Translations under genes and position numbers: made by a program | From: Candidatus Omnitrophota bacterium | Lineage (GTDB): Bacteria > Omnitrophota > Gorgyraeia > B26-G9 | Length of the DNA stretch: 64,000 nucleotides | Assembly (NCBI GenBank): GCA_043814605.1 | Contig: JBDRJV010000035.1 | Location: 10,275-74,274, forward strand | Direction of reading: 5' to 3' | Notes under the pieces: generated by a model | What the model saw: the letters and a program-made list of their open reading frames with translations, nothing else | What the model was told of the DNA's origin: nothing | Database searches by the model: none | Shown: piece by piece, positions 3,039-46,942 of the stretch | Position numbering within the stretch: position 1 is the stretch's first letter | Layout: the number at the start of each line of letters is the position of its first letter

Positions 3039-4076
3039 CTACAGCAGAAATTTTCCGCTGATCCAACGCGCAACATCCTTTGCATGATAGGTAATAATTA
3101 GATTTGCTCCGGCTCTCCTCATGCTTAATAAACTTTCGAGAATTATTTCCTTTTCATCCAGCCACCCCAGAGAACCCGCGGCACGGACCATTGCAAATTC
3201 ACCACTTACATTATAAACAGCAATCGGCGTGTTAAATTTATCTTTGGCTCGGGCAACAATATCTAAATAAGCTAATGCCGGCTTTATCATAACAATATCT
3301 GCACCTTCTTGAATATCTAATTCGATCTCACGCAAAGCTTCATTACAATTGGCCGGATTCATCTGATATGTTTTGCGATTACCCGATTCCGGTGATGATT
3401 TAGCTATATCGCGAAACGGGCCATAGAAACTTGAGGCAAATTTAGCACTGTAAGCCATTATCGGAATATGTTTAAAATTATTGGCATCTAAATTTTTGCG
3501 AATCGCACTAACCTGCCCGTCCATCATACTGCTGGGGGCCACCATATCCACACCCGCCTCAGCATGAGAAAGCGCCATCTTGGCTAATAATTCACAGGTT
3601 GCATCATTATAAACAACTAATTCTTGTGCCTGCTTTGTTCCATTTTCATCATCGTCTTTACTTATGGCGATTTTACTCACAATCCCGCAATGTCCGGAAT
3701 CAGTATAAGCGCAAAGGCAAACATCCGTAATCACCAAAAGATTCGGATATTTTTCTTTAATTGCTTTAATTGCAGTTTGAACAATGCCATTTTTCGCATA
3801 AGCAGCTGTTGCCCGCTCATCCTTGCGTTCGGGGATACCAAAAATCATTACTGCTTGAATATGCAGTTCATTAATCTCTTTAATTTCTTTTAGCAAATTA
3901 TCCACGGATAATCTAAAAATTCCGGGCATGGATTCTATTGCTTCTTTTTTGTTTTTACCCTCAATCACAAATACAGGATAAACTAAAGAACGCACATTTA
4001 ATTCTGTTTCTTGAAACATATCCCGTATTGTTTTGTTATTTCTTAACCTGCGTAATCTTGTTACTGGATAATACAT
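3039..4076 (-). CDS. hemB: Porphobilinogen synthase (delta-aminolevulinate dehydratase)
   Basis: 345 aa, MYYPVTRLRRLRNNKTIRDMFQETELNVRSLVYPVFV with the active-site Lys region and metal-binding Cys of HemB. A GGAGG sits 5 nt upstream of the ATG. Confidence 0.9.
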   Translation of the reverse strand: MYYPVTRLRRLRNNKTIRDMFQETELNVRSLVYPVFVIEGKNKKEAIESMPGIFRLSVDNLLKEIKEINELHIQAVMIFGIPERKDERATAAYAKNGIVQTAIKAIKEKYPNLLVITDVCLCAYTDSGHCGIVSKIAISKDDDENGTKQAQELVVYNDATCELLAKMALSHAEAGVDMVAPSSMMDGQVSAIRKNLDANNFKHIPIMAYSAKFASSFYGPFRDIAKSSPESGNRKTYQMNPANCNEALREIELDIQEGADIVMIKPALAYLDIVARAKDKFNTPIAVYNVSGEFAMVRAAGSLGWLDEKEIILESLLSMRRAGANLIITYHAKDVARWISGKFLL

Positions 4077-6017: not shown

Positions 6018-6323
6018 TTACTTTAAGTTATACGATATATGAAATAGCATCCCTACCAATGACTTTTGTAAAAAAACTATAATAAAAAATGCCAAAAGCG
6101 GCGATAAATCTATATGAATTTGCATCGTTAAAGGCATTAACAACTGCCTTAATGGCTCTAAAACCGGATCAGTCATCCGGCGCAAAAACACAACAATCGG
6201 GTTATACGGGTCCGGATTAACCCAGCTAATCAAGGCCCGGATTAAAATCATCCAGTAAAGACAGGTTAGCCCTAAACCCAGTACTGTAGCTAATCCATCT
6301 AATATATAGGCAATAATAAACAT
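6018..6323 (-). CDS. yggT: YggT-family small membrane protein
   Basis: 101 aa, ISWVNPDPYNPIVVFLRRMTDPVLEPLR matches the YggT/Ycf19 signature. Confidence 0.65.
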   Translation of the reverse strand: MFIIAYILDGLATVLGLGLTCLYWMILIRALISWVNPDPYNPIVVFLRRMTDPVLEPLRQLLMPLTMQIHIDLSPLLAFFIIVFLQKSLVGMLFHISYNLK

Positions 6324-6555
6324 AATTATTTGCTTAATTTCTCATCTAATCCAGTCTTAAAAATAAGAAAAAGTCAGTATTTTTAGTATAACGAGTATAC
6401 TAAGAAAAATCAATAAATTTCTCTTATAAGTAATTTAAGGTAAGATTAGTATTTTTATGGGGTTAGTGTAACCAATGTCTGTTATTAATAACTTACTTAT
6501 ATTAAAAACAGTAAAAATTTTAACTAAAGGAGGTTAATGGAGTTACTAAGATTTA

Positions 6556-9500
6556 TTATATTGCCTGTTCAATAATTATATCTGGATAAGATAACTCAGG
6601 GGCAAACCACTTTTGAGGAAGATTCATCTCTGGCAGAAAACGAGGTATTGAGGGAATTCCTTTCCCTGAACGAATACTTTCTGAGAAAATTTCATCTACT
6701 GTTCTATCATCGCTTATAAATGCATTGTCCGCTTCTCTTTGAATCTGATTATTAATTCTATTAACTTCACTTTCCAGAGCTTCTTTTAAATTGTAAAATT
6801 TTTTATCCTTAAAAAACTCATTAAAAATTTTGTTTAAATTTTTTGTATTAATATGCCTTATAAACTCCTTCACATAAGCAACTTCGGCAATTCCTATGCT
6901 GGGAATAATCTCGCCTTTTTGAGCTGCTTTACAATAAGCTGCATAAAGTAAAAATTCAGGGCTTGATGCCAATGTTCCGCAAAGTGTTAACGGATAATTA
7001 TATTTTTTAGAATTTGACAGCAAAATATTTAAAGCATCTATCAAATCTGGGCTCAGCTGATTAAGAATTTCACTCATGCCTACAGTTCCTCTTTCTACCT
7101 TTTCTCCGCGATGTACAGCTAAAAATGTTATTAAATCATTGGTTCCAATACTGCCAAAATCAGAAATTTCCATTAAACTAGAACTAGACAAAACAGAACT
7201 TGTAGTTTCAAACATCAGGCCTATTTGAAAACCTTTTATATCTTCTTCAGATATTTTAATATAACTAGGGTCTTCTTCCTCTCTCTTATTTTCATCTTTT
7301 TCTAATAATTCTGTTTCAGCTTTCTTGACAAGGTCCCTTTCTCTGACCAATTCATCAACAGTTGAAACCATGGGAAAAAATACTTTAATTACTCCATGTT
7401 CTGCATAAACCCGCATAGCTGCTTTAATCAGATTTTTTGTTATTCTTTGTCCCACAGCATCATCAAGTATAAACTCAATCCCCTGGAGTTTATCATCCAC
7501 GCGTTCCTGATCATTAACTTCATCTTCTGTAAGCACTAAATCATAAAAATCCTTTACATCCGCATCCGCAGCCCGGGAAAGCTGGCGGTCCGGCATTCTC
7601 ACGCTTAATGATTTAACTTTAGATTGAATAATAATATCTTTAAATATTTCTATCCATTTATCTTCTGGGATATCGCTTTCAAAACGCTGGAATTCATTTT
7701 CTGTCCGATATAAAGCAATTCCATCCACGCCAATTTTATCAAACTGCGTCGCTCCTTCAAACCCGTCTAAATTAACCATCAAAGACATTTCTGTTCCGTC
7801 TTTTGTCTTGACCGGGTCAAGTATTTTATTTTTACAATATTTTTCTCTAGCCACTGCGTCTTTCTGGATTGCTATTGCTTTTTTCTTATCCATATCATTA
7901 GGGTTAATTATTAAACTATGGTCTTTTGTATTTAAAATAGCTACTTCCCCGCCCTCAATTGCTTCCAGCGTCGAAACTCTGACTCCATTAATTGTTGTTG
8001 ACGCTTCTGCAATAATGGGAAAACCCTCCCCCTTAGCAACCAATGAATAATGTTTTAATCCTTTCCGGGTAACTATTCCTACACAATTCGGATAAAGTTT
8101 TCTTATTCTCCAATATTCAGGGATACTGCCAATATCCTGTGGTAATAAGAGAATAAATGCGGATTCTTTTGGGGCATTATTAATTTTTATAGATACTTTA
8201 TCACTTTCTGAGTAATCTTTTTTACTTTTTTTCAATTTGTACAATCGATACAATTCATTTGCAGCAGTTGCGTTTTCTATAGCTGAATTAATAACTACAC
8301 TATTAGGATTAATACTGTGTACAGCAAGCGGCTGAGTCCCAGAAAAAATTGCTCGTTCTACAGAGTAATTCTTATTACGCATAAGATATAATGTTTTCCA
8401 AGTTAGATTTTGCAAACTTCCTTTAAAACTTTTACATGTAGCAATTATATTACTATTATATTCGTTAAACTCCTTGCTTTTTTCTCCATATTTCTTTTTA
8501 ATTTTATTAAGCTCTAAAGTATATTTTTTAAGTTTTTCAGAATATTCTTTATCAATTTCCAAAAATGTATCAATTAAAAATTTTTCTTCTTCATTTTTTG
8601 GATTTAAATTTTCATCCGCTTCCATTATTTTATATAACACTTTAGAAATATCAATTGCAGCAGAAAAAATTTCATTATTTAAATCAGCATTATCGCTTTC
8701 ATTTTCTGTAAAATTCATTATTTCTGAAAGAAATTTTACTATTGGGGATTTTTTTGTTTCATGCGCATAATCAACGCTTAGACTAAATGCTTTATTAAAT
8801 AATGATTTTACTTCATTTCTATATTGATGATTTTTGTCTTCCAAATTTTTAATGATATTTGATATTGCTTTTCCTAAATCATCAATATCCTGTATTATAT
8901 TTTGGGAAGTATAACCCTTAAGAGGATAAGACAAATATTTAGGATCTTCTTCAGCTTTAACCATTATTCCAGAATAACAGTTGGGAGGAGTTTTGTTAGA
9001 TACTCCGTTTACAGAAAAACCTTTTTTCATTGTTTCTCGCATTTCTTCAGTTATCAACTGGATTTTTCTTCTTTTCTCGTCGCGGTTTTTTGCAATAGTT
9101 CCTAAATTTATTTGTTTTCCTTTCATCTGATCCATACTTATCAAATTTTTTTCCTTACCAAATAAATTGCTTTTTATTGCATCAATATTTAATCCTTTTT
9201 TATCTGCTTTTTCTTCAGTTGAAATTTCATGCATTTCTATAAACATTATTCCCAAATCATCCTCAGCTAAATTTTCATTTGTTTTAAATGTTGCGCTTGT
9301 GTCCTTATAAGTATTACCTTTTAATGTTTTTTCTATAAATTCAGAAATTTTTCCCTTTACTCCCGCTTCATTTTTATAGACAACAAATGATTCTGTAAAT
9401 TCCTGTCCTTCAATACTCACATTTCTTAAAGTAAGTATAAATTTCTGTTCCTGATTTTTGTTATTCAAAATATTTTTAATCATCTCATTAATAGAAATAA

Positions 9501-9933
9501 TCTGATAATACAATGTCTCCAAAGAAGTTCTTTGTTTATATTCAAGAGGCATTTTCGATAGGATAGTATCGGCTAAAAGCAGATTCAAAAAAATAAATTC
9601 TTCTTTTTCTGCAGAATCCAGCCTTTTCTGCCCCAGGAAGTTTTTTTCTGAAATTAATTGGAGCAGTTCAGCTTCTTTGTCGGTTCTTGCTCTAAACGGA
9701 AGTTCAGATAAAGAATCAATGATATATACAGGTTCATACTTTTTTGTTTCTTTCTTGGTTTCGGCAGTCTTTGAAAAAACATTTTGTATTGCTTTATTGC
9801 TAAGCTCTATATCCGGAGCAAGATTATCATGGTCATAAGTAATAAAAGCCAGAGCATTGCTTAATAATAATAATTGTATCAGCAATAAACTTGTAAGATT
9901 TGTGATGAATTTTAATTTCTTATTTATTTTCAT
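6556..9933 (-). CDS. Large exported protein: Sec signal peptide, K/E/N-rich low-complexity N-terminal half, C-terminal PEP-utilising enzyme (Enzyme I-like) phosphohistidine and PEP-binding domains
   Basis: Predicted start MKINKKLKFITNLTSLLLIQLLLLSNALAF (ATG 9931-9933, AGGA 9 nt upstream). The track start at 9993 is a TTG inside a repeat. The C-terminal roughly 560 aa carry a GIVTRKGLKHYSLVAKGEGFPII His region, GVDGIALYRTENEF (G..G..LYRTEF), SIGTNDLITFLAVHRGEK (the FSIGTNDL motif) and LCGTLASSPE (CGE.AGDP-like). Confidence 0.55.
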   Translation of the reverse strand: MKINKKLKFITNLTSLLLIQLLLLSNALAFITYDHDNLAPDIELSNKAIQNVFSKTAETKKETKKYEPVYIIDSLSELPFRARTDKEAELLQLISEKNFLGQKRLDSAEKEEFIFLNLLLADTILSKMPLEYKQRTSLETLYYQIISINEMIKNILNNKNQEQKFILTLRNVSIEGQEFTESFVVYKNEAGVKGKISEFIEKTLKGNTYKDTSATFKTNENLAEDDLGIMFIEMHEISTEEKADKKGLNIDAIKSNLFGKEKNLISMDQMKGKQINLGTIAKNRDEKRRKIQLITEEMRETMKKGFSVNGVSNKTPPNCYSGIMVKAEEDPKYLSYPLKGYTSQNIIQDIDDLGKAISNIIKNLEDKNHQYRNEVKSLFNKAFSLSVDYAHETKKSPIVKFLSEIMNFTENESDNADLNNEIFSAAIDISKVLYKIMEADENLNPKNEEEKFLIDTFLEIDKEYSEKLKKYTLELNKIKKKYGEKSKEFNEYNSNIIATCKSFKGSLQNLTWKTLYLMRNKNYSVERAIFSGTQPLAVHSINPNSVVINSAIENATAANELYRLYKLKKSKKDYSESDKVSIKINNAPKESAFILLLPQDIGSIPEYWRIRKLYPNCVGIVTRKGLKHYSLVAKGEGFPIIAEASTTINGVRVSTLEAIEGGEVAILNTKDHSLIINPNDMDKKKAIAIQKDAVAREKYCKNKILDPVKTKDGTEMSLMVNLDGFEGATQFDKIGVDGIALYRTENEFQRFESDIPEDKWIEIFKDIIIQSKVKSLSVRMPDRQLSRAADADVKDFYDLVLTEDEVNDQERVDDKLQGIEFILDDAVGQRITKNLIKAAMRVYAEHGVIKVFFPMVSTVDELVRERDLVKKAETELLEKDENKREEEDPSYIKISEEDIKGFQIGLMFETTSSVLSSSSLMEISDFGSIGTNDLITFLAVHRGEKVERGTVGMSEILNQLSPDLIDALNILLSNSKKYNYPLTLCGTLASSPEFLLYAAYCKAAQKGEIIPSIGIAEVAYVKEFIRHINTKNLNKIFNEFFKDKKFYNLKEALESEVNRINNQIQREADNAFISDDRTVDEIFSESIRSGKGIPSIPRFLPEMNLPQKWFAPELSYPDIIIEQAI

Positions 9934-9951
9934 TTCAATTGTCCTGCTTTT

Positions 9952-10001
9952 TAAGTAGCGAGTAGTACCCTTACGGGCACAAGCGAGTAGCAAGTAGCGA
10001 G
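9952..10001. repeat. Heptad-repeat intergenic element, copy 1 of the 45-bp variant
   Basis: AGTAGCG/AGTAGTA/AGCGAGT/AGCAAGT 7-bp units flank the near-palindrome gtacccttacgggcac. It is nearly identical to 36533-36582. Confidence 0.7.
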
Positions 10002-10041
10002 AAAAATATTTTTACTTTATGCTAATCGCTAAGCGCTATCT

Positions 10042-11343
10042 TTAAATCGCCTGTTCGATTATCCCTTTATTAATAAATAAATTACTTTCTTGCGCTTCAA
10101 TGGGCAATGCTGGCTTTATTTGTTCGAATAAAACATTGAAATCCAACATGGAGTTTTGCGCTTTTATTGCAAAAATATCAAAATTATCCCAACCTTCAGA
10201 TTCATATGAATTAATTTTTTCAGTGATCAAGTTATATTTTTTAAATAAATCATAAATATAGTCGCTCCCCTTTAACACAACCATGTATAAAACTCCGTTG
10301 GGAGTAAGATACATATTAAATTCAGAAAACAATTTATTAAAAAACTCATAACTATTTTCTATTTCGGATACCCCTCGGCGTTGGTTAAATTTCGGAAAAA
10401 TTGTTTCCCCGGGTGGGAAAAATGCCATTGCACTAAATTTTCGCCCTTTTAAATTAGCAAATAAATTAGAATTTATTACTTCTACTTTATCCTCAACTCC
10501 TAAAGCATTAACTACCATCCGCGTATTTGTTATTGCTGTTTTTTTGTAATCAATGGCAACTGCGTTAGCTCCTGTTTTTTTTGCAATAATTCCGCTAAGA
10601 AAACCTGCGCCTGAGCCAATTTCTAAAATCTTATCCTGAGAATTAACTCTTTCTAAAACACTTTTTATCAGTATTTCTGTAGCTTTATTAATTGGATAAT
10701 ATACAGCAGAAACATATGGCAATTTATCAATACCTATATTCCAGTTTTTTAAAGAAACAGGCTTTATTAAAAAGATAGAAACTCCTTCATCAAAAATAAG
10801 TGAATTATCTAGTTGTTTTTTTAATTTTGGTAATTGTTCCGGGTCTAAATCCATCGCGGTAATTTCAACAAGATTGATTAAAAAAGTTCTTCGGTAATGC
10901 ATTAATTTTATCTTTAGTGCTAAAGGGTAGTTATCAGAATTTCTGATTAAAAATGCTTCAAATTCATTATTTAGACCTGGGATAATTTCTTTAACTAATT
11001 CTGTATTACCAATATTGACCGGAATATTGTTAGCGATTGGATTTTTCTGCTTAATAATTTCAAGTTTCAAATCGTCTAAAAAAACTTCAACCGTAGAATT
11101 AAGCTTAGGAAATTTAATTTTATCAAATAATGGTTTATTCCTATTCTGCCTGGTTAGAGAAATTTGTATATTTTTAAAAATTTCAGAAAAGTTATTAGCA
11201 TTTAATTGCATTGCCGGTGAAAGCAAATCGCTATTTTTATACGCAAAATTTTTCCCTGCTCCAAATGCCCATGTATGGGTTATTAAAATAAGCATTTGAA
11301 TTAAAATAAGTAATAGAATATTAAAAAACAATTTCTTATTCAT
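10042..11343 (-). CDS. Exported protein with a C-terminal class-I SAM-dependent methyltransferase fold (HemK/PrmC-like, degenerate NPPY)
   Basis: Signal peptide MNKKLFFNILLLILIQMLILITHTWAF. Motif I ILEIGSGAGFLSGIIAKK. A motif-IV-like AFFPPGE in place of NPPY. Confidence 0.5.
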   Translation of the reverse strand: MNKKLFFNILLLILIQMLILITHTWAFGAGKNFAYKNSDLLSPAMQLNANNFSEIFKNIQISLTRQNRNKPLFDKIKFPKLNSTVEVFLDDLKLEIIKQKNPIANNIPVNIGNTELVKEIIPGLNNEFEAFLIRNSDNYPLALKIKLMHYRRTFLINLVEITAMDLDPEQLPKLKKQLDNSLIFDEGVSIFLIKPVSLKNWNIGIDKLPYVSAVYYPINKATEILIKSVLERVNSQDKILEIGSGAGFLSGIIAKKTGANAVAIDYKKTAITNTRMVVNALGVEDKVEVINSNLFANLKGRKFSAMAFFPPGETIFPKFNQRRGVSEIENSYEFFNKLFSEFNMYLTPNGVLYMVVLKGSDYIYDLFKKYNLITEKINSYESEGWDNFDIFAIKAQNSMLDFNVLFEQIKPALPIEAQESNLFINKGIIEQAI

Positions 11344-11577
11344 AATTATTAATTTATCGTTAATTTATACTTTTAAAATGGTTTTATTATATTATATAAT
11401 TATATCATATTTAAATTAACTTTGCAAATCATTGAATTTATAACTTTCTTTATATCAATTAGATATGATAACTTATAAGTAAAATTTATCTTTAAACATT
11501 AAATTTAACTAATTAACTAAATAAAATACTCAACTAGTTTAAAATACCATAGTTAAGTGTTTATGAACATTAGGTTT

Positions 11578-14500
11578 TTAAATTGAACGCTCTAAATTCA
11601 TTATGAGTGCTTGCGAAGGAGCAGCGCTTTTTTCTAATATTTTATCTTCTCCTGTGTTTTTGACTGCTTCAGCCTGTTGTTGGGATAATTTTTCACTGAG
11701 TAATTCTAAAGCTTTTTTCATTGTTTGTTTTATTACAGGCAATTTAGTTTTGTCTTTGTAAAATATAACTAATCCCGGAGTCCCGCCAATAGCCATCATT
11801 CTTGCACTGTTACCGAATTCATAAACATTTAAGGCAATATTTAAAGTTAAACCTTTAGAGATTTCCAAAGAACCAAGCTCCCCTTCACCTTCCGGAAAAG
11901 AATGCGTAGGAATAAGAAATGCCAGAATTGACCTTTCAACCTGTGCCTGCATTCCTTCAATCGCAACATGAGAGAAACCCGGAAATACCATGCTAAAATT
12001 ACTAATCCCGAATTTCCCTAAATTTTCATTAATACTTTTTTTAACCTCTCCGATGTTTTCATCCTGAGCATCTGAAATCATATATCCTAAGCCAAAATAT
12101 TCAACAGTATCCAACCTGCCTTGTTGCTGTAACAAGTTAAAATAATAGCTTGCAATTACCTCCGGAGCATCATCGAAAGATTTATCCTTATAATTATTTT
12201 CTTCTTCCTGAGATATATTTTGTTCGCAAGCCACAGACATAACTATTCCGTTGTCTATATCCTTATGCACAACAACTTCATTATCTAAAGGCGGCAACGA
12301 ATAATCACTGCTTAATCTGCCCATATTTTTAAAGGCCTCGAAAGAATCCAAAATCACATCAACCATTTCTGTTTTTTTACCGCCAGATTCTGCATAATCA
12401 CTATAAAATATTGTCTTATTAATCGCTGCCAAAATTATTCCTGCTAAATCTTCAAGATTAACCCCCAAATCATCAGCAACCGGAATCAGCACATTCTCAA
12501 TATAAGCATTAAAAGCTCCTGGCAAACTGATATCATTTACATTCATTTTTGCCTGTTTAATTTTATCTGTAAGCTGTTTACGCCACTCGGATCTTCTTAT
12601 CGCTTTAGCCGCTTGAGCATTTTCTACAACCTCTTTCATCGGGATTATTCTATCTTTAAAACTTAATGCCTCACCAGGCTGTTTAAGCTGGCGCAGCATC
12701 AGAATTCCCTGAGATTCCGCTGTTGTTTCTCGGGTTGTTTTTACCGCAAGATTTGAGGTTGGGTCTTTATCTTCAAAATGGGAAAGCGTGATTACTTCTG
12801 TCTGCATCAGAACGGTAGCCCGGGCTTGAACCGCTAAATTATAGGCTAATTTTCTGTCTACTTCTGCCTGAGAATCACCTTTATTGACCTTTTCTATCCG
12901 CAACTCAATTACCTGCACAGGGATTTGATATAAACTTCTTAACATATTACTTTGAATTCGCATCGCCGCAGCCTCAGGAGAATTAGAGTCAATAAAAAAT
13001 ATAAACTGATAAAGATCAGGCCGGGCTTGTGCCAATTGCATATAATCATTATTGTTATCTCCAAAAGCAGAGAAAGAATGAATAAAATTATTTCTTTGTA
13101 ACCCCGGCGCCAGGCCGGCAATACCTTCATTTGTATTCTGCGCATGTTCCATAATAAAATTTGATAAAGTTTCCGGATAAACCATCCAAAATTTATTACG
13201 ATCTTTTGTATAATTTCGGCGTGCAGAAACAGCTAATTTACTTGCCGCGTTATTCATTGCCTGGTTAAGATTATTATCTTTTATCCGTTTCGGCATTAAT
13301 TCAATATTCGTTTGATAAATCCCCTGAGCATAAACCTTGAGCATTTTTTCCGCCCAATCAAATGTTTTATGTTTATCTTTAAACTGTTTATATCCGATAA
13401 TTGCCAGCCAGGAATATAAAGGCCCATAAACCATATCTGTTAATTCTAACATGTGCCGGCCGCCAATATCACTTCTGGTATTATCAATAAAGTAAACTGT
13501 CCCTTGCTCTGGATCAATGCTCATGGTCAAATTTTTTACTCTTCCTGCATTAGCCCAGGAAATCACATTTAAAATCTGCAGGAAAGCATTCGGATTAATC
13601 AGAATTTCCTGTAAATCAGCGGGTTCCGTTGTATTCCCGCTGCGGCTCATAACCCACATGATTACATTTTTAATTGTCGGGTCTCTAAAATTTTCTAAAA
13701 CCTGAAGGATTTGTGCCGGATTATCAACAATTTGTAAATTAAAGTTTATGCCTAAAGCTTTAACTAATTGATCCAGGATATCTCTTAAACGACGCGCATA
13801 CTGTTCATTTGCGCCAATGCCATTATTCAACACATTATCAATTTCTTCTATGTTCAGGTTATTTTCCATAAAATTTCTTAAGCCATCAATTGATTCTCTT
13901 AAATCCGAAAGCCCTTTTTCTCCATAAATTTCCAGATTAGATTCACTTGTAAACCACTCTGGTTTTTCTTTTCCATAACCAGGAAGCTGTAAAAACCGGC
14001 CGTAAAAATCATCAATCCCGTCAAAATGCGGAAAACTTGTTGTCTGCGCATCAATAAACTTTTGGATTAAAAGATTAGACAAATAATTTGCTGGGCCTGG
14101 ATTTAAAGCCGGGCTTTGCGAAGCAGGATAAACAGTAACTTCTTTATCCGTTACATTAATTTTAAGATAATTGTCACTTAAATCACTTATATTTAATGTT
14201 CCTGCATGTTTTGCTGCGTTAAGTTCATATCTTAGTATTTTAGATTTTAACTTTGGATTTTTCTTTAATATTTCCAAAACCTGCTCTTTAGTCTTACCGG
14301 ATTTTTTTGCTAATTCAATCACCGCCGGAACAAATGCATCTGCATCTAATGCATTAATAATTGTGCCAATAAGCCTTTCATAATTATATATACCGGCAAG
14401 ATCCATAGAAGCTTTAATCTCTTGCATTAAAAATTTTGGGTTTATTGCGGGTATCGCGTACTTTTTTAGAATATCTTCTTTCTTAATGCTAAACATTTGA

Positions 14501-14676
14501 TAGAAATTGATATTTTGCATATTAATAACTGGAGCAAGATTATTTCTTTCTTGAGGATTTGCACTTAATGACTTAATATCCCCGTCAGCAAAAGACATAT
14601 TTGATAATAAAAAACCATGAATAATTAGAAGAGTAAGAACTTTAACCCAAAATTTTCCTGTAAGAAACTTAACCAT
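11578..14676 (-). CDS. Large exported protein (1032 aa) with a central SIS/phosphoglucose-isomerase-like motif
   Basis: Signal peptide MVKFLTGKFWVKVLTLLIIHGFLLSNMSFA. VIMWVMSRSGNTTEP resembles the PGI SIS motif (V.SKSGTT.ET), and GGRHM..SWLAIIG is nearby. Confidence 0.4.
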   Translation of the reverse strand: MVKFLTGKFWVKVLTLLIIHGFLLSNMSFADGDIKSLSANPQERNNLAPVINMQNINFYQMFSIKKEDILKKYAIPAINPKFLMQEIKASMDLAGIYNYERLIGTIINALDADAFVPAVIELAKKSGKTKEQVLEILKKNPKLKSKILRYELNAAKHAGTLNISDLSDNYLKINVTDKEVTVYPASQSPALNPGPANYLSNLLIQKFIDAQTTSFPHFDGIDDFYGRFLQLPGYGKEKPEWFTSESNLEIYGEKGLSDLRESIDGLRNFMENNLNIEEIDNVLNNGIGANEQYARRLRDILDQLVKALGINFNLQIVDNPAQILQVLENFRDPTIKNVIMWVMSRSGNTTEPADLQEILINPNAFLQILNVISWANAGRVKNLTMSIDPEQGTVYFIDNTRSDIGGRHMLELTDMVYGPLYSWLAIIGYKQFKDKHKTFDWAEKMLKVYAQGIYQTNIELMPKRIKDNNLNQAMNNAASKLAVSARRNYTKDRNKFWMVYPETLSNFIMEHAQNTNEGIAGLAPGLQRNNFIHSFSAFGDNNNDYMQLAQARPDLYQFIFFIDSNSPEAAAMRIQSNMLRSLYQIPVQVIELRIEKVNKGDSQAEVDRKLAYNLAVQARATVLMQTEVITLSHFEDKDPTSNLAVKTTRETTAESQGILMLRQLKQPGEALSFKDRIIPMKEVVENAQAAKAIRRSEWRKQLTDKIKQAKMNVNDISLPGAFNAYIENVLIPVADDLGVNLEDLAGIILAAINKTIFYSDYAESGGKKTEMVDVILDSFEAFKNMGRLSSDYSLPPLDNEVVVHKDIDNGIVMSVACEQNISQEEENNYKDKSFDDAPEVIASYYFNLLQQQGRLDTVEYFGLGYMISDAQDENIGEVKKSINENLGKFGISNFSMVFPGFSHVAIEGMQAQVERSILAFLIPTHSFPEGEGELGSLEISKGLTLNIALNVYEFGNSARMMAIGGTPGLVIFYKDKTKLPVIKQTMKKALELLSEKLSQQQAEAVKNTGEDKILEKSAAPSQALIMNLERSI

Positions 14677-14944
14677 GTTTTACTCCTTTATGGGCAAACA
14701 TTAATTAAAATATTTTTACTTGAGAATTAGGAATATTCCTTTTTAATTTACCTTTAAAAAGAAATAAATAAGTTCAAAAGTATACCATATAATATTGTTA
14801 TATACAAGGGCCGGAATAATTTTTCTTTTACTATAACTTGCTGTACATAAAGGTGTTAAGATAAAGATTGAAAATTGTTCAGCATATAATTTTATTAAAC
14901 AATTATTTTAATTTAATGGGGAGGAATTTTTATCCTAAAAACAA

Positions 14945-16348
14945 TTAAAACCGAAAAAGACGTTTAAGGGCAACATAAGAATACCAAAACATATTCAATT
15001 TATAAGGAAATCGGATAATTATCCGCACAATCCTTTTAATATCCAGAAAAAATTTACGATAGGCAAGCTTTTGTAATTGATGTAATCTTTTTGTGGCAAC
15101 TGTACTTAAATTAAAATCATGCAACCAATAATCAACTTCATAATATTGTTCTGCGGGTAATTTTGAGTATTTTTTTGCTAAATCCCATAATCCTGTTCGT
15201 TCAAAGGGAACAACAATAAAAAAATTTGCTAAATGAAGTTGAGATTTAACTGCAAAATCTATAGTCATTTTTACTTCCTCTTCAGTTTCAGTAGGAAATC
15301 CGAGCATAAAAAAAGCTTGGATAAGAATCTTATATTTATTAAGCAAGTTGATACTTTCAACTATTTTTTTTAAATCAAGATTTTTTTTAATTAATTTTTG
15401 AATACGTGCTGATGCTGTTTCAACTGCAACTGTAACTAAGTTTACTCCGGCAGCTTTTAATTTTTTAACATCCTCTTCATTAAGAATATCTCCTCTTAAA
15501 GCGTTAGGGAAAGAAAATGAAATATTTAACTTTTGTTCAACTATAGAATCAAGAATTTCATGCATTCTTTTTCTCTCAAAATTAAACGTATCATCATAAA
15601 TTAAAAATTGGTGAATATTAAAATTTTTCTGCATATATTTTATTTCATCAATTACATTATCCGGGCTTCTCCCTCTAAATTTCTTACCAAAAACATGATG
15701 ACAATACGCACATTGATAAGGACATCCGCGGCTTGTAAAAATCGGCAAATACCTTAATGGTCCTAAGGTAGACATATTTCTTGTTTTAAAATATTTTTTT
15801 AAATCTAACAGATCAAAAGCAGGATAAGGCAAGGAATCTAAGTTTTCCATAAAAGCAGGCGAACCTGTAAAAATAACCTTACCTTCTCGGGCAAAAGCAA
15901 TCCCTTTTATCTGAGACAAATTTCCGTTATTGAGCAATACTTTAACTATATTTTCTATTGTCCCTTCTGTTTCTCCTACAGCAACTAAGTCTATTGATGG
16001 CTCAAGAGCCAGACTATCATAATGAATTGTTGCATGAGCTCCTCCTACGATAAGTTTAACATCAGGTAATGTTTGTTTTATTTTATTAGCAACCTCAAGC
16101 ATCAATCCAGCATTATAAGTCATTGCCGATAAGCCGACAATTGCCGGGTTTTCTTTTTTAATCACCTCGGTAATTTCCTGCGGATTCATTTTTTTTATCT
16201 TCATATCAAGGATATGAACATTTTTAAAACCAGATTTGCGCATTACAGCTGCTAAATAGCAAATTCCCATCGGCGGGGTCATTATCGGATCATTAGATGT
16301 AAATTTTCCGATATTTATAAAAATTATTTTTCCCTGTTTTGACATCAT
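14945..16348 (-). CDS. B12-binding-domain radical SAM protein (paralogue 1)
   Basis: N-terminal cobalamin-binding-like domain (IVGLSAMTYNAGLMLEVANKIK..VGGAHATIH) followed by TSRGCPYQCAYCHH. Confidence 0.75.
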   Translation of the reverse strand: MMSKQGKIIFINIGKFTSNDPIMTPPMGICYLAAVMRKSGFKNVHILDMKIKKMNPQEITEVIKKENPAIVGLSAMTYNAGLMLEVANKIKQTLPDVKLIVGGAHATIHYDSLALEPSIDLVAVGETEGTIENIVKVLLNNGNLSQIKGIAFAREGKVIFTGSPAFMENLDSLPYPAFDLLDLKKYFKTRNMSTLGPLRYLPIFTSRGCPYQCAYCHHVFGKKFRGRSPDNVIDEIKYMQKNFNIHQFLIYDDTFNFERKRMHEILDSIVEQKLNISFSFPNALRGDILNEEDVKKLKAAGVNLVTVAVETASARIQKLIKKNLDLKKIVESINLLNKYKILIQAFFMLGFPTETEEEVKMTIDFAVKSQLHLANFFIVVPFERTGLWDLAKKYSKLPAEQYYEVDYWLHDFNLSTVATKRLHQLQKLAYRKFFLDIKRIVRIIIRFPYKLNMFWYSYVALKRLFRF

Positions 16349-16369
16349 TGAGTCTGTACGCCTTTCTGA

Positions 16370-17860
16370 TTAAAACATAATATTTTTAACCAAACTAAAA
16401 ATTTTAAATTCCCAAGGAAATTTAAAATTTAAATTCTTAAGACGATATCTGGCAATCGGTCTATATACTTTGCATAAAAGTCTAACAAAAACAGATTCGA
16501 TTATATCATTGCTTTTTTCATCAATAAATAAACTTAAGAAAAAAATAAAATTTAACTCTTTTTTTTCTTTGGCATTAAACCAGGGCGTAATTATCGTTGA
16601 ACCGTCTATTTTCGCCCATTCTTTTAAAGAACCAGGCATTTTAAAACCCTGTCCTTGTGCCTGTTCTAATAGTTTTGTCCCTGGCTGAGGAGTTAAACAA
16701 AAAGCCGATAATATCCTTGCTTGGGGATTATCTTCAAGCAGTTTAAACATTAAATCAATACTTTTCTTTAAATCTATACGTGTTTCACCCGGCATGCCAA
16801 TCGTAAAATAATAATAGCAAATCATATTAGTTTTTTTAAGACGATTATTTAATTGAATTATATCTAAAAGAGAGGATTTTTTCTGCATTCCTTCAAGCAT
16901 TTTAACAGAGCCTGATTCTGCTCCCATACGTAAAATAGAACATCCTGCGTGTTCGATCAGCTCCAAATAAGCATCACTGACGCTAATTAATTTATCAATA
17001 TCCACTCCTTGTAAAAACCATTTTATAGCTATATTTCTTTTTATTAATCCCCGGGCTATATCTTCAACTCTTTTTAGATCTGTAAAAAATGCATCATCAA
17101 TAAAATCCAAACAGCTAACATTATATTCTTTTACTAACCGTTCAATCCGCTTTAAAACTTTTTCTGCGGATTGAGCGCGCCATTTTCTTTTATTAAACAC
17201 AGGATTATAGCAAAAAATACAATCCTGCACACAGCCGCGGGAAGTTTCTATATTTAATTTTAGTTTGTCTTTTTCAAACCGGGATCCAGCACTAACATTA
17301 TATTCAGACACATTAATCAGATGATACGGCAAATCCGGTAATTCATTTAAATCAATAAAATCACGTATTCCGGTAAAAATAAACTCTTTGTTCTTTTTAT
17401 AATAAATACCCCTGACCTTTGAGATATCTTCTTTTTTTTCAATTGCCTGAGCAAATTCAAACAGAGTTTCTTCTGCTTCGCCCACACAAACATAATCAAT
17501 GCTGGGTTCTTTTAATACAACTTCCGGGATTAAACTCGGATGCACTCCTCCCCAGATTACAGGGATATTAATTTTTAATTTGAAATTTTTTGAACTTTTT
17601 AGATATTCAGAGATTTCCAGCGCATGCAAAATTTGTGTGCCCCCCATTGTATGCACGCCCGCTAAAATTGTATCTTCATTTACTATTTTTTTTAATTCGA
17701 GTTTCCAATCACAATATAAATTCTGGTCAAAAATTTTTACATCATATTTCTCTGTTAAATAAACCGCAGCACTTAATAACCCCAGCGGCAAGGGCCGTTT
17801 TTTACGCAGATTAACAAATAAACCGCCGGTTTTAGGATAAATGAGAATTATTCTTTTCAT
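16370..17860 (-). CDS. B12-binding-domain radical SAM protein (paralogue 2)
   Basis: Same architecture, with TSRGCVQDCIFCYNP. Confidence 0.75.
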   Translation of the reverse strand: MKRIILIYPKTGGLFVNLRKKRPLPLGLLSAAVYLTEKYDVKIFDQNLYCDWKLELKKIVNEDTILAGVHTMGGTQILHALEISEYLKSSKNFKLKINIPVIWGGVHPSLIPEVVLKEPSIDYVCVGEAEETLFEFAQAIEKKEDISKVRGIYYKKNKEFIFTGIRDFIDLNELPDLPYHLINVSEYNVSAGSRFEKDKLKLNIETSRGCVQDCIFCYNPVFNKRKWRAQSAEKVLKRIERLVKEYNVSCLDFIDDAFFTDLKRVEDIARGLIKRNIAIKWFLQGVDIDKLISVSDAYLELIEHAGCSILRMGAESGSVKMLEGMQKKSSLLDIIQLNNRLKKTNMICYYYFTIGMPGETRIDLKKSIDLMFKLLEDNPQARILSAFCLTPQPGTKLLEQAQGQGFKMPGSLKEWAKIDGSTIITPWFNAKEKKELNFIFFLSLFIDEKSNDIIESVFVRLLCKVYRPIARYRLKNLNFKFPWEFKIFSLVKNIMF

Positions 17861-17952
17861 GTTCAGGTCTCAGGTTACAAGTTACAGGTTTTAAGCCACA
17901 GGCATGTACTAATTCTTCTACTTGCTACTTGCTACTTACTGCCTGATGCTTG
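17861..17952. repeat. Heptad-repeat intergenic element with inverted arms
   Basis: Left arm CAGGTTA CAAGTTA CAGGTTT TAAGCCA CAGGCAT. Right arm CTTGCTA CTTGCTA CTTACTG CCTGATG CTTGTTA CTTATTG CTTGTTA. The arms are imperfect reverse complements of each other. It fills the whole gap between two rSAM genes. Confidence 0.7.
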
Positions 17953-19473: not shown

Positions 19474-19477
19474 AAAA

Positions 19478-41658: not shown

Positions 41659-41731
41659 TTTAAAATACTAAAAATTAGTATTTTAAAACATTTCTCCCGC
41701 ACATAATTCATGTATTTTTCTTGTTGGTCAA

Positions 41732-43735: not shown

Positions 43736-43748
43736 AACATAAGTCCTT

Positions 43749-45893: not shown

Positions 45894-45957
45894 ATTCTAA
45901 CTCCCTTTAAAATAAATAAATTTTTAATTTTAAAATTATAAAATTATACATCCCGGA

Positions 45958-46332: not shown

Positions 46333-46355
46333 ATCTCCGCCCCTTTCTTTCTAAT

Positions 46356-46868: not shown

Positions 46869-46942
46869 TTTATTGCCTCCTTCTAAAAAATGATGAATAT
46901 TAAAATCTTTACTTTCTGAGATTAATCAGTTTTATTCCCCGT

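What the first reader, a model, noticed from the sequence alone, without database searches (positions are those of the whole stretch)
6556..14676. Three consecutive Sec-signal-peptide proteins built from normally cytoplasmic enzyme folds (Enzyme-I-like PEP-utilising domain, HemK-like methyltransferase fold, PGI/SIS-like motif)
All three genes begin with closely related signal peptides (LLSNALAF, THTWAF, LLSNMSFA), which suggests common ancestry or co-export. The mature parts carry recognisable motifs of cytoplasmic metabolic enzymes:
- the 1126-aa protein has FSIGTNDL, G..G..LYRTEF and a CGE-like segment, i.e. the phosphohistidine swivel and PEP-binding barrel of Enzyme I/PEP synthase, behind a K/E/N-rich low-complexity half of about 500 aa;
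- the 433-aa protein has SAM motif I (LEIGSGAG) and a degenerate NPPY (FFPPG);
- the 1032-aa protein has a SKSGTTxET-like SIS motif (SRSGNTTEP).
PEP-dependent phosphotransfer outside the cytoplasm is not an established activity. The three could be moonlighting or repurposed folds in a surface or periplasmic assembly, or an undescribed exported system. The co-oriented B12-rSAM block follows directly downstream.
Basis: partly seen in the sequence, partly recalled or inferred. Interest (0 to 1): 0.78.

Follow-up and report, generated by a model that had tools for sequence, protein, structure and literature searches.

The report
Shared export tags on cytoplasm-type enzymes
Three neighbouring genes of an uncultured Omnitrophota bacterium encode relatives of normally cytoplasmic enzymes that all carry the same export-type N-terminal signal, the same short motif just behind it and the same six-residue C-terminal tail; this tag pair also marks at least 24 more enzyme-like proteins in related genomes, I found no description of it, and it points to enzyme chemistry placed outside the cytoplasm.

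Summary
On the minus strand lie P3 (11578-14676), P2 (10042-11343) and P1 (6556-9933).

- **P1** is a complete Enzyme-I-like protein. The phospho-His and all PEP-site residues are conserved, and the AlphaFold2 model matches full-length EI.
- **P2** is a SAM methyltransferase in which NPPY has become FFPPG.
- **P3** has no Pfam or PDB sequence hit. Its core aligns collinearly with glucose-6-phosphate isomerase (PGI) above every shuffle, and in relatives it is fused behind phosphoglucomutase.

The three share more than a generic signal peptide. Each has a signal helix with a conserved mid-helix polar residue, then an L-(A/S)-P-x-Φ-x-Φ...F motif, and ends in L-(I/V)-E-Q-(A/S)-I-COOH. I found the N-tag on 27 proteins from seven sources (six contig loci including the window, plus one lone database protein) and the tail on all 24 with a readable C-terminus (degenerate in two). 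Cargo includes PPDK, HD hydrolase, glutamate dehydrogenase, patatin, deiminase, DHH phosphoesterase and a glycosyltransferase. An HMM built without any window sequence picks exactly these three ORFs from the window.

Fused versions of the P1 and P3 modules inside giant Omnitrophota proteins lack the tags. No Pfam or NCBIfam model and no paper I could search describes them.

Best reading: an undescribed sorting or docking tag for exported enzyme modules. The machinery and the destination are unknown. The radical-SAM block is unrelated.

The parts
11578..14676 (-). P3: 1032-aa tagged protein with a divergent PGI-like (double-SIS) core
   Evidence: ORF. It is identical to NCBI ABIG64_08150 of a Candidatus Omnitrophota MAG. 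Only two close homologues were found among 5.8 billion proteins.
14479..14676 (-). P3 N-tag (residues 1-66): signal-type helix with a mid-helix His ('LLIIHGF'), an SFA|D site, then the L-A-P motif
   Evidence: An N-tag HMM built without any window sequence or any EI-like protein hits this ORF at 1.3e-8.
14491..14541 (-). P3 post-signal motif NLAPVINMQNINFYQMF
   Evidence: Coordinates checked. Consensus over 27 proteins.
12667..13893 (-). P3 PGI-like core (residues 262-670) with NGIGANE, SRSGNTTEP, IGGRHM, QNTNEGIA, IHSF and AVKTTRE
   Evidence: hhalign against a PGI profile is collinear over PGI residues 50-428 with score 32.3; none of 150 shuffles reached it. The motifs are invariant in 5 homologues. 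The core sits behind PGM domains in fusion proteins.
11581..11598 (-). P3 C-terminal tail NLERSI-COOH
10042..11343 (-). P2: 433-aa tagged protein with an unknown N-domain and a class-I SAM methyltransferase domain
   Evidence: The homologue search found only the protein itself.
11176..11226 (-). P2 post-signal motif LLSPAMQLNANNFSEIF, preceded by the signal helix 'LILIQMLIL' and the site TWA|F
   Evidence: The leave-out HMM scores 1.8e-10.
10219..10692 (-). P2 methyltransferase domain (residues 218-375): motif I LEIGSGAG at 240, motif IV FFPPG at 308
   Evidence: Pfam MTS 5.6e-11. NCBIfam HemK/Mtq2-type hits are all far below their cut-offs. FFPP aligns under NPP in 1dus and 7wm6.
10045..10062 (-). 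P2 C-terminal tail IIEQAI-COOH
6556..9933 (-). P1: 1125-aa tagged Enzyme-I-like PEP-utilising protein with an extra N-terminal region of about 400 aa
   Evidence: AlphaFold2 pLDDT 80.5 and pTM 0.73. Foldseek against full-length EI 2hwg: E 2e-21, TM 0.68 normalised to the target.
9775..9825 (-). P1 post-signal motif NLAPDIELSNKAIQNVF, preceded by the signal helix 'LLLIQLLLL' and the site ALA|F
   Evidence: The leave-out HMM scores 4.6e-8. The segment has low pLDDT, so it is flexible in the monomer model.
8050..8052 (-). P1 His628 codon (GLKHYS), the equivalent of the EI phospho-acceptor His189
   Evidence: Near-invariant in the 40-sequence alignment A4. Coordinates checked.
6949..7815 (-). P1 PEP-binding TIM-barrel domain (PEP-utilizers_C) with LYRTE, VRMPDR, MFETT, GTNDL, HRG and LCGT
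   Evidence: Pfam 1.5e-28. Residue mapping to EI R296, R332, E431, N454/D455, R465 and C502.
6559..6576 (-). P1 C-terminal tail IIEQAI-COOH
   Evidence: In the model the last 43 residues have pLDDT below 50.

Best explanation
The three genes are cargo of a lineage-specific tag pair. I found it in Omnitrophota, in a MAG labelled 'PVC group bacterium', and on contigs and database proteins that carry no taxon label here, and I found no prior description of it.

**Architecture of each protein.**
1. A very hydrophobic, positively charged N-terminal signal. Its helix carries a conserved polar residue (usually Gln, as in 'LIQAFL') and ends in a small-x-small site.
2. Five to 25 residues later, the motif (D/E/S)-x-L-(A/S)-P-x-Φ-x-Φ-(N/S)-x3-Φ-x3-F.
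3. An enzyme module of a kind that is normally cytoplasmic.
4. The C-terminal tail L-(I/V)-E-Q-(A/S)-I-COOH.

**Shown here.**
- The tags exist and are conserved at about 30% overall identity.
- They are modular: the three mature proteins share nothing else.
- They mark contiguous gene arrays with very different cargo.
- They are absent from fused or giant versions of the same modules.
- P1 is a structurally complete Enzyme-I-like protein with catalytic residues intact.
- The P3 core is a remote PGI-like fold with the Glu and His equivalents conserved.
- P2 binds SAM by motif but has lost the NPPY asparagine.

**Inferred.**
- The signal drives Sec export, probably SRP-dependent and co-translational, or it acts as a type-II anchor. 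Either way the enzyme part lies outside the cytoplasm of this diderm cell.
- A common partner then reads the two flexible terminal motifs. That partner could be a second-step sorting or secretion machine, a scaffold, or the tags of neighbouring cargo.
- In this way free-standing enzyme modules are brought together. This would be the non-covalent counterpart of the giant multi-enzyme membrane or surface proteins of other Omnitrophota, which hold the same modules fused.
- The substrates (PEP, SAM, hexose phosphates) would then have to come from a prey or host cell. That step is speculation.
For: **The tags are real and specific.**
- They are unique to these 3 of 187 window ORFs.
- Counts over 27 proteins from seven sources, i.e. 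six contig loci including the window plus the lone protein P0003: L 26/27, A/S 27/27, P 27/27 and F at +14 22/27. For the 26 tails counted, which include the fragment P0012: terminal I 24/26 and A/S at -1 25/26.
- A leave-out HMM, built from 17 tags of other genomes with no EI-like proteins, hits P2 at 1.8e-10, P3 at 1.3e-8 and P1 at 4.6e-8. The next window ORF scores 0.18. The window's other signal-bearing proteins are not hit.
- The mature parts are unrelated to each other (BLASTP E above 0.4).

**Other genomes carry tagged arrays.**
- Syntenic locus L012: recJ, tagged PPDK (1356 aa), tagged HD_4 protein (503 aa), the P1 orthologue, then yggT-trkH-hemB.
- L019: at least 7 consecutive tagged genes, including PAD_porph, a DHH protein and a patatin.
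- L017: at least 7, including a HATPase_c protein and a glutamate dehydrogenase.
- L020: 5, including a GT1 glycosyltransferase.

**Link to fused and giant proteins.**
- Fused versions lack the tags. These are P0155 (4747 aa, with Amidase_2), P0015, P0008, P0002 and the ORFs in L002 and L003.

**Signal and enzyme features.**
- Signal heuristics pass.
- There is no RR motif, whereas the window's own hydrogenase small subunit has a Tat RRQFLK signal.
- The cell is diderm.
- P1 catalytic residues and fold.
- P3 against PGI.
- Both tags have pLDDT below 50 in an otherwise confident model, as expected for linear motifs that bind a partner.

**Literature.** Giant Omnitrophota proteins carry glucose-phosphate isomerase, PGM, methyltransferase and pyruvate-phosphate-dikinase domains predicted to be extracellular, and 94% have a signal peptide or TM helix.
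Against: - No signal-peptide or topology predictor could be run, so localisation rests on heuristics.
- PEP, SAM, ATP and sugar phosphates are not known to be available in a periplasm.
- No candidate receptor, peptidase or secretion machine is conserved next to the arrays.
- The loci from other genomes were found by walking from P1-family genes (the lone protein P0003 came from the P3 search), so genome-wide frequency and independence from P1 are unknown.
- The family is rare: 14 representatives at E below 1e-30 among 1.84 billion, and the metagenome scan added nothing new.
- A conserved polar residue inside the signal helix is unusual for a peptide that is simply cleaved and discarded. It may mean the helix is retained.
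- P3 homology to PGI is statistically weak (E 0.0025, hhalign probability 6-12%), and its AlphaFold2 model failed.
Confidence: 0.5

Rival explanations
1. Membrane-tethered cytoplasmic metabolon. The N-terminal helix is not cleaved and anchors the enzymes on the cytoplasmic face, where PEP, SAM and sugar phosphates exist. The conserved Gln would drive helix-helix association in the membrane, and the terminal motifs would mediate assembly there.
For: All identifiable cargo needs cytoplasmic metabolites. A mid-helix polar residue is conserved in about 22 of 27 tags. The authors of the giant-protein studies themselves doubt extracellular placement of glycolytic domains and describe many TM-only giants as cytoplasm-facing.
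Against: - A single N-terminal helix with a K/R-rich segment before it and acidic residues after it predicts N-in/C-out by the positive-inside rule.
- Nearly all tags have a canonical small-x-small site right after the helix.
- One giant relative combines the P1 module with a peptidoglycan amidase, which works outside the cytoplasm.
Confidence: 0.2
2. Ordinary periplasmic processing signals. The proteins are Sec-exported. The C-terminal non-polar tail is only a recognition site for a tail-specific (Prc/Ctp-type, PDZ-containing) protease or a quality-control factor. The L-(A/S)-P segment is a pro-peptide or chaperone-binding strand. There is no dedicated sorting machine or assembly.
For: The tail ends in small-hydrophobic residues (A/S-I-COOH), the class of C-termini bound by PDZ domains of Prc/Ctp/Deg proteases (established knowledge, not tested here). 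Both motifs are flexible in the model. No dedicated machinery is encoded nearby.
Against: This does not explain why unrelated cargo in at least five genomes keeps both tags together, why tagged genes cluster in arrays, or why fused versions of the same modules lack them.
Confidence: 0.12
3. Pseudo-enzymes. The folds were recruited as structural, adhesive or binding modules of the cell surface and no longer catalyse anything.
For: P2 has lost the Asn and the aromatic residue of NPPY. P3 has GIGAN instead of GIGGS and lacks the Lys of ESNGK. None of the three reaches an NCBIfam equivalog cut-off.
Against: P1-family members at 25-48% identity keep the phospho-His and every PEP/Mg-site residue of EI. 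The Glu517, His533, Arg407 and phosphate-loop Ser/Thr of P3 are invariant in five homologues at 38-56% identity. Such conservation is not expected without catalysis.
Confidence: 0.08
4. Nothing special: three unrelated secreted proteins whose signal peptides look alike by chance or through AT-rich composition.
For: Signal peptides are compositionally similar in general, and the genome is AT-rich (29-37% GC in this region).
Against: The leave-out HMM separates these three from all other window ORFs by more than six orders of magnitude in E-value and ignores the window's other signal-bearing proteins. The identical C-terminal hexapeptide IIEQAI ends both P1 and P2. The tags recur on 24 proteins from other sources.
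Confidence: 0.01

Closest known systems
Giant multi-enzyme proteins of Omnitrophota ('Archaeovorins' and 'multi-enzyme metabolic clusters'; bioRxiv 10.1101/2023.11.21.568195 and 10.64898/2026.06.07.730766)
   Same: Same phylum. The module repertoire is the same: glucose-phosphate-isomerase-like, PGM, SAM methyltransferases, PEP/pyruvate-dikinase-type domains, HAD and HATPase. These giants also mostly have signal peptides or TM helices, and the same puzzle of metabolic domains predicted outside the cytoplasm was raised for them. P1-like and P3-like modules sit inside such long ORFs (P0155, P0015, L001-L003).
   Different: Here the modules are free-standing proteins of 0.4-1.1 kaa. Each has its own signal and a conserved N-motif and C-tail that the fused versions lack. 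Neither paper mentions such a tag.
Enzyme I of the PEP:sugar phosphotransferase system (PtsI; PtsP/EI-Ntr as an N-terminally extended variant)
   Same: P1 has the PEP-binding barrel, the swivel His and an EIN-like region. Foldseek against full-length 2hwg gives E 2e-21. All catalytic residues are conserved.
   Different: P1 scores 91 bits against the 342-bit PtsI cut-off. It has a signal peptide and tags, an extra N-terminal region of about 400 aa with no match, no HPr gene or PTS permease in the 64-kb window, and a family-specific VKEFIRHI(D/N)T motif.
Dual-signal sorting systems: T9SS (Sec signal plus C-terminal domain), PEP-CTERM/exosortase, LPXTG/sortase
   Same: The logic is the same: an N-terminal Sec signal plus a second, family-wide terminal signal shared by otherwise unrelated cargo, with large paralogous cargo sets.
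   Different: The tail here is 6-8 residues with a free carboxylate. It has no TM helix and no folded C-terminal domain. There is an additional conserved N-terminal motif. No Pfam or NCBIfam sorting-signal model matches, and no sortase-like or T9SS gene is adjacent.
Docking peptides of modular assembly lines (PKS/NRPS C-to-N docking domains; dockerin-cohesin of cellulosomes)
   Same: Short, flexible terminal elements at both ends of separate enzyme subunits could replace the covalent linkage seen in fused homologues.
   Different: This is purely an analogy. No interaction was tested, there is no sequence similarity, and all tags here are of one type rather than matched pairs.
Glucose-6-phosphate isomerase (PGI, double SIS fold)
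   Same: All PGI signature blocks appear in order in P3: GIG.., S.S..T.E, GGR.., (Q)...E, H and a V(K/E) block. P3 is also fused to PGM in relatives.
   Different: No Pfam PGI or SIS hit was found. The profile-profile match is weak. P3 has 260 extra residues at the N-terminus and 360 at the C-terminus. The Lys equivalent of the catalytic set is unresolved.
HemK/PrmC-Mtq2 and RsmC-type 'MTS' methyltransferases
   Same: P2 has the class-I fold, motif I and an acidic post-I residue. The best PDB and NCBIfam matches are of this type.
   Different: Motif IV NPPY is FFPPG. All NCBIfam scores are far below their cut-offs. P2 has an unknown 150-aa N-domain, and no homologue other than itself was retrieved.

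Membership tests
Sec-type cleavable signal peptide | Positively charged n-region, hydrophobic h-region of 10-15 residues, small residues at -3 and -1, and no further TM segments | tested here: met
   A heuristic scan passes all three proteins. The same features appear in almost all of the 27 tags. This is not a trained predictor.
Sec-type cleavable signal peptide | Positive call by SignalP or DeepTMHMM, or experimental cleavage | not testable with these tools
   No such predictor was available, and there are no proteomic data for this MAG.
Tat signal peptide | Twin-arginine S/T-R-R-x-F-L-K motif in the n-region | tested here: not met
   There is no RR in P1, P2 or P3. The window's hydrogenase small subunit does carry RRQFLK.
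Bacterial lipoprotein | Lipobox [LVI][ASTVI][GAS]C at the end of the signal | tested here: not met
   There is no Cys at the cleavage region of P1, P2 or P3. It is not conserved in the 27 tags.
Enzyme I (PtsI) / PEP-utilising enzymes | PEP-binding TIM-barrel domain (PF02896) | tested here: met
   P1 residues 707-995 score 1.5e-28. Foldseek against EIC structures gives TM 0.8 normalised to the target.
Enzyme I (PtsI) / PEP-utilising enzymes | Phospho-acceptor His on a swivel domain and the catalytic set R296, R332, E431, N454, D455, R465 and C502 (E. coli numbering) | tested here: met
   H628, R743, R779, E909, N932, D933, R948 and C985 are near-invariant in alignment A4. Pfam PF00391 itself was not reported for P1.
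Enzyme I (PtsI) / PEP-utilising enzymes | Equivalog-level score for PtsI and a PTS context (HPr, EII) | tested here: not met
   P1 scores 91 bits against the TIGR01417 cut-off of 341.7. No HPr or EII gene was recognised in the window or in L012.
HemK/Mtq2-type N-methyltransferases | SAM-binding motif I (GxGxG) | tested here: met
   LEIGSGAG lies at residue 240. The MTS domain scores 5.6e-11.
HemK/Mtq2-type N-methyltransferases | Motif IV (D/N)PP(Y/F), which binds the target amide or amine | tested here: not met
   FFPPG aligns under (T/C)NPP(F) of 1dus and 7wm6.
Glucose-6-phosphate isomerase | Match to PF00342 or to SIS models, or to solved PGI sequences | tested here: not met
   No hit at E up to 1 (Pfam, NCBIfam) or up to 10 (PDB, single sequence and 5-sequence profile).
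Glucose-6-phosphate isomerase | Profile-profile similarity with the signature motifs in order, and the catalytic Glu and His | tested here: inconclusive
   hhalign score 32.3, E 0.0025, probability 6-12%, 342 columns collinear. None of 150 shuffles reached it. E517 and H533 align to the PGI Glu and His. The Lys equivalent is ambiguous. The structure model failed (pLDDT 35).
Known C-terminal sorting signals (T9SS CTD, PEP-CTERM, LPXTG, GlyGly-CTERM and similar) | A folded C-terminal domain of 70-100 aa, or a motif plus TM helix plus basic tail | tested here: not met
   The tail is 6-8 residues with no TM helix. No NCBIfam or Pfam model matched in 13 tagged proteins scanned at permissive thresholds.
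Omnitrophota giant proteins (at least 7,000 aa) | Very long single ORF | tested here: not met
   The three proteins are 433-1125 aa.
Omnitrophota giant proteins (at least 7,000 aa) | Shared enzyme modules | tested here: met
   The P1 module occurs in P0155 (4747 aa, partial) and P0015. The P3 module occurs in L001-L003.
The tag pair proposed here (N-signal with polar h-region residue, L-(A/S)-P motif, ...EQ(A/S)I-COOH tail) | All three elements present and recognised by a model built from other genomes | tested here: met
   P3 has the variants His in the helix and NLERSI as the tail.

The most novel reading that the evidence does not exclude
Omnitrophota and related PVC-group bacteria run a set of normally cytoplasmic reactions outside their own cytoplasm: in the periplasm, at the contact zone with a prey or host cell, or after delivery into that cell. 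These reactions would include PEP-dependent phosphotransfer, PPDK, hexose-phosphate isomerisation, pyrophosphatase, glutamate dehydrogenase and methylation. The free-standing enzymes would be exported and then joined, or sorted, through a new N-terminal motif and C-terminal tail. The resulting non-covalent assembly would be equivalent to the phylum's giant multi-enzyme proteins.
Probability: 0.25. Interest if true: 0.9.

Novelty: new variant of a known kind. Interest (0 to 1): 0.8.

Why it matters
Two recent studies left a question open: are the metabolic enzyme domains of giant Omnitrophota proteins really outside the cell, or is that an artefact of predicting topology for 10-100 kaa proteins?

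The triad gives the same puzzle in its simplest form. Each protein has one N-terminal hydrophobic segment, no other TM helix and a soluble enzyme. Ordinary experiments can test it: reporter fusions, N-terminal proteomics and enzyme assays on proteins of 0.4-1.1 kaa.

The tag pair itself is a handle.
- It can be turned into an HMM to list the full cargo set in complete genomes.
- It can be used to look for the co-occurring machinery.
- It can be used as bait.

If the enzymes do work outside the cytoplasm or inside prey, that would be a new way for ultra-small predatory or parasitic bacteria to exploit another cell's metabolites. If they face the cytoplasm, the tags would define a new kind of membrane-tethered enzyme assembly.

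Tried and rejected
- **Full-length P1 in the word-indexed protein search.** It returned nothing, not even P1 itself, probably because K/E/N-rich words flooded the candidate list. The exhaustive HMMER search solved this.
- **P2 homologue search.** It found only P2 itself.
- **AlphaFold2 of P3 with a 3-sequence alignment.** The model reached pLDDT 35 and was unusable, so I made no fold search on it.
- **P3 against PDB sequences.** Neither the single sequence nor the 5-sequence profile gave a hit. hhalign of the P3 profile against E. coli Pgi alone gave nothing either. Only a comparison with an 8-sequence PGI profile gave a signal.
- **Genome-collection scan with P3.** It returned only two loci, both fragments of giant ORFs.
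- **Metagenome scan with the P1-specific pattern VKEFIRHI[DN].** It returned only the two JGI contigs already seen.
- **Extending contigs.** Two look-ups from the window ends found no record. The 21 kb of the NCBI contig outside the window was therefore not seen.
- **TM-parity test on multi-TM cargo.** I tried to check whether the tail and the N-motif lie on the same side of the membrane. A crude hydropathy count was unreliable and I dropped the test.
- **Promoter and terminator scan of 6200-15100.** Counts were at the level of the shuffles, so I make no operon claim.
- **Tag-like motifs at module boundaries inside giant or fused proteins.** I looked for them and found none. An apparent 'IEQGI...SSPVQI' junction in P0015 aligns to the interior of the P1 domain, so I rejected it as coincidence.
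- **The radical-SAM/CrtI block as part of the system.** I rejected this because the block is missing from the syntenic locus L012.

Full report
**1. What is at the coordinates**

The window comes from a Candidatus Omnitrophota MAG: P3 is 100% identical to NCBI ABIG64_08150 on an 85.8-kb contig. All long ORFs lie on the minus strand. In transcription order the finding covers three genes:

| Protein | Coordinates | Length |
|---|---|---|
| P3 | 11578-14676 | 1032 aa |
| P2 | 10042-11343 | 433 aa |
| P1 | 6556-9933 | 1125 aa from the ATG |

A TTG start at 9993 is possible for P1, but the orthologue P0005 begins 'MKTNKQLKF', which favours the ATG. Upstream lie three B12-binding radical-SAM genes, a CrtI-family oxidoreductase and recJ. 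Downstream lie yggT, trkH and hemB. The organism is diderm: it has a Kdo transferase, a TonB-dependent receptor and an OMP barrel.

**2. The N-termini**

No trained predictor was available. A heuristic scan gives a net positive n-region (+2 to +4), a 12-residue hydrophobic maximum of 2.5-3.3, no later TM-like segment, and the small-x-small sites ALA|F, TWA|F and SFA|D. Only 5 of 47 ORFs pass, and three of them are this triad. None has a twin-arginine motif, whereas the window's own [NiFe]-hydrogenase small subunit does (RRQFLK). By the positive-inside rule the bulk of each protein lies outside the cytoplasm, whether or not the signal is cleaved.

**3. The enzyme parts**

*P1.*
- PEP-utilizers_C scores 1.5e-28.
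- PtsI/PtsP models score about 91 bits, far below their cut-offs.
- In a 40-sequence alignment of the P1 family plus canonical EIs, H628, R743, R779, E909, N932/D933, R948 and C985 are near-invariant. These correspond to EI His189, R296, R332, E431, N454/D455, R465 and C502.
- AlphaFold2 with that alignment gives pLDDT 80.5 and pTM 0.73.
- Foldseek matches full-length phosphorylated EI (2hwg: E 2e-21, TM 0.68 normalised to the target, 638 columns) and the isolated EIN domain (1zym: 5e-5).

P1 is therefore a complete EI-like protein preceded by about 400 further residues. These fold confidently and are conserved in the family, so they are not low-complexity filler.

*P2.*
- The MTS domain scores 5.6e-11.
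- Motif I is intact.
- FFPP lies where solved relatives have (T/C)NPP.

P2 probably binds SAM, but the amide- or amine-binding Asn is gone. No homologue was retrieved.

*P3.*
- Pfam, NCBIfam and PDB sequence searches find nothing.
- Only five relatives were found. Four of them place the P3 domain directly behind phosphoglucomutase domains in long fusion ORFs (L001 holds P0002) or in contigs that are one uninterrupted ORF from end to end (L002, L003). One of these also carries phosphoglycerate kinase.
- I built a PGI profile from eight plasmid-borne or E. coli PGIs.
- hhalign of the P3 core (residues 262-670) against it scores 32.3 (E 0.0025) and is collinear over PGI residues 50-428. All signature blocks are in register: GIGGS/GIGAN, SKSxTTxET/SRSGNTTEP, VGGRYS/IGGRHM, ESNGK/NEGIAG and QHA/HSF.
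- 150 column shuffles gave mean 16.4, sd 2.9 and maximum 28.9.

I read this as a real but very distant PGI-like fold that retains the Glu, His, Arg and phosphate-loop residues. Membership in PGI is not established.

**4.

All three proteins share a motif 5-25 residues behind the signal: NLAPDIELSNKAIQNVF in P1, LLSPAMQLNANNFSEIF in P2 and NLAPVINMQNINFYQMF in P3. They end in IIEQAI, IIEQAI and NLERSI. No other of the 187 ORFs of at least 60 aa in the window has either feature. Outside these tags the three mature proteins show no similarity (BLASTP E above 0.4).

**5. The tags are a family-wide property**

An exhaustive HMMER search with P1 found 14 representatives at E below 1e-30 before canonical EIs begin at about 1e-20. 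Every full-length stand-alone member (P0005, P0006, P0010, P0011, P0016, at 25-48% identity) has the signal, the motif at residue 34-38 and an ...(A/S)I tail.

Their genomic neighbourhoods are as follows.

| Locus | Tagged genes |
|---|---|
| L012 (syntenic: PEMT-recJ ... yggT-trkH-hemB) | A full PPDK (1356 aa, ...LNQAI) and an HD_4 protein (503 aa, ...LIQGSI) in place of the window's radical-SAM genes, P3 and P2, plus the P1 orthologue |
| L019 | At least 7 consecutive: PAD_porph, a 1421-aa protein, EI-like, a DHH/pyrophosphatase-like protein, a 622-aa protein, a patatin, and a protein of more than 1847 aa |
| L017 | At least 7: HATPase_c, a glutamate-dehydrogenase fusion, EI-like and four proteins of unknown function |
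| L020 | 5: a multi-TM protein, a GT1 resembling mannosylglucosylglycerate synthase, two small unknowns and EI-like |

Counts over the 27 proteins:

| Position | Residue | Count |
|---|---|---|
| -1 | L | 26/27 |
| 0 | A or S | 27/27 |
| +1 | P | 27/27 |
| +14 | F | 22/27 |
| C-terminal residue | I | 24/26 |
| Penultimate residue | A or S | 25/26 |

Position +3 is I, L or V in 25 of the 27 and position +5 is I, L, M or V in 25 of the 27. Gln, or Asn/His, sits in the middle of the signal helix in about 22 of 27.

As a cross-validation I built an HMM from 17 tags of other genomes, excluding all EI-like proteins and all window sequences. Against the window ORFs it hits P2 (1.8e-10), P3 (1.3e-8) and P1 (4.6e-8). 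The next window ORF scores 0.18. The window's other signal-bearing proteins and 136 canonical EIs are not hit. No Pfam or NCBIfam model matches the tags. The paper searches I ran, on the tail sequence IEQAI across the library and on sorting-, signal- and motif-related terms within the three Omnitrophota papers, found no description.

**6. Relation to giant proteins**

P0007 clusters at 90% identity with P0155, a partial 4747-aa Omnitrophota protein. P0155 has many TM segments, an N-acetylmuramoyl-L-alanine amidase domain and the P1 module. P0015 (2023 aa) and P0008 (1521 aa) are further fusions. None of these, nor the P3 fusions, carries the N-motif or the tail.

Published work describes giant Omnitrophota proteins with the same module repertoire: glucose-phosphate isomerase, PGM, methyltransferases and pyruvate-phosphate-dikinase-type domains. 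In that work 94% of the giants have a signal peptide or TM helices, and whether the metabolic domains are truly extracytoplasmic is left open. The triad is thus the unfused counterpart of such modules, and the tags appear exactly where covalent linkage is missing.

**7. How it most likely works**

*Shown:* the architecture, the conservation, the modularity, the clustering, the catalytic-residue conservation and the flexibility of both tags in a confident model (pLDDT below 50 at residues 25-70 and 1083-1125).

*Inferred:* the very hydrophobic signal directs co-translational Sec export or acts as a type-II anchor. That route would suit domains which otherwise fold in the cytoplasm. The two linear motifs are then bound by a common partner or by each other, which sorts or assembles the modules. 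Where the substrates come from is unknown. The predatory or host-dependent lifestyle proposed for the phylum makes a prey-facing or prey-internal site conceivable, but nothing here tests that.

The main rival keeps the enzymes on the cytoplasmic face, with the helix acting as an anchor. This rival draws strength from the cargo's substrate needs and from the conserved polar residue in the helix. The charge distribution and the cleavage-type sites argue against it.

**8. Verdict**

- The radical-SAM block is unrelated, because it is absent from L012.
- Exported metabolic modules in Omnitrophota are already discussed in the literature. The dual tag on free-standing proteins, with its cargo range and its mutual exclusivity with fusion, appears to be new. 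I rate it a new variant of a known kind (protein-sorting or docking signals), with high interest because it turns an open question into a tractable one.

**9. Limits**

- Localisation rests on heuristics.
- Other genomes were sampled through P1-family genes, and through P3 relatives in the case of P0003.
- Few genomes are involved, some with uncertain MAG taxonomy (one 'PVC group', one 'Elusimicrobiota' label).
- P3's homology to PGI is weak.
- No machinery was identified.

Noticed in passing
window 14945-21076 (- strand): Three B12-binding radical-SAM genes and a CrtI-family FAD oxidoreductase. The best NCBIfam hits (BchE, HpnJ, 'lipid biosynthesis B12-binding/radical SAM', phytoene desaturase family) are all far below their cut-offs. 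The block is missing from the otherwise syntenic locus L012, so it looks like an insertion between recJ and the tagged genes. It is possibly a lipid-modification cluster.
   Followed up: partly
L002:1-6156 and L003:1-7989: Both contigs are a single uninterrupted reading frame from end to end (2051 and 2662 codons). They are fragments of giant multi-enzyme genes. L002 reads PGK(C-terminal part)-PGM-P3-like-PGK. L003 reads PGM-Methyltransf_11-DUF218-(unassigned region)-P3-like. L002 is labelled a 'Deltaproteobacteria' MAG.
   Followed up: partly
L001:2-6881: A HAD plus PGM-domain-I ORF is followed, after a small frame change, by an ORF with PGM domains II-IV, the P3-like domain and a 230-aa extension (P0002, 1738 aa). 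This is probably one gene split by a frameshift or an assembly error.
   Followed up: no
L017:4835-8171 and L020:2820-4634: Small tagged proteins with no Pfam or NCBIfam match appear to be conserved between two genomes on reading the sequences; I did not align them. The pairs are 234/238 aa, sharing 'APRLTG..RRLN..RG', and 486/348 aa, sharing 'NYS(S/T)EG..'. They could be non-enzymatic components of the system, for example adaptors.
   Followed up: no
L020:7244-9691 (- strand): An 815-aa tagged protein has about eight TM segments, so tagged cargo is not limited to soluble enzymes. A crude TM count could not settle on which side its C-terminal tail lies.
   Followed up: partly
P0155 (4747 aa, partial; NCBI MDD5155090.1): This giant Omnitrophota protein combines a peptidoglycan amidase domain (2055-2177) with the EI-like module (PEP-utilizers_C at 3272-3561) in one polypeptide that has many TM helices.
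   Followed up: partly
window 50772-53759 (- strand): [NiFe] hydrogenase small subunit (with a Tat RRQFLK signal), large subunit and a HycI-type maturation protease.
   Followed up: partly
window 272-4076 (- strand): Two AsnC-like/NirDL-like siroheme-decarboxylase-type genes, a radical-SAM/SPASM gene and hemB. Together they suggest the alternative (siroheme-dependent) haem pathway.
   Followed up: no
window 41050-48649 (- strand): A chemotaxis gene set: CheA, CheB, an MCP and, by sequence look only, CheC/CheD-like ORFs. This is notable for a phylum described as ultra-small and host-dependent.
   Followed up: no
window 59607-60608 (- strand): A prepilin peptidase (A24_N_bact plus Peptidase_A24). 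Type-IV-pilus or T2SS-like machinery has been reported next to giant genes in this phylum. I did not test any link to the tagged proteins.
   Followed up: no
window 6556-11343: The P1/P2 region has the lowest GC of the window (0.29 against 0.33-0.40 elsewhere), in line with the K/N/I-rich composition of these proteins. I did not test whether this reflects foreign origin.
   Followed up: no
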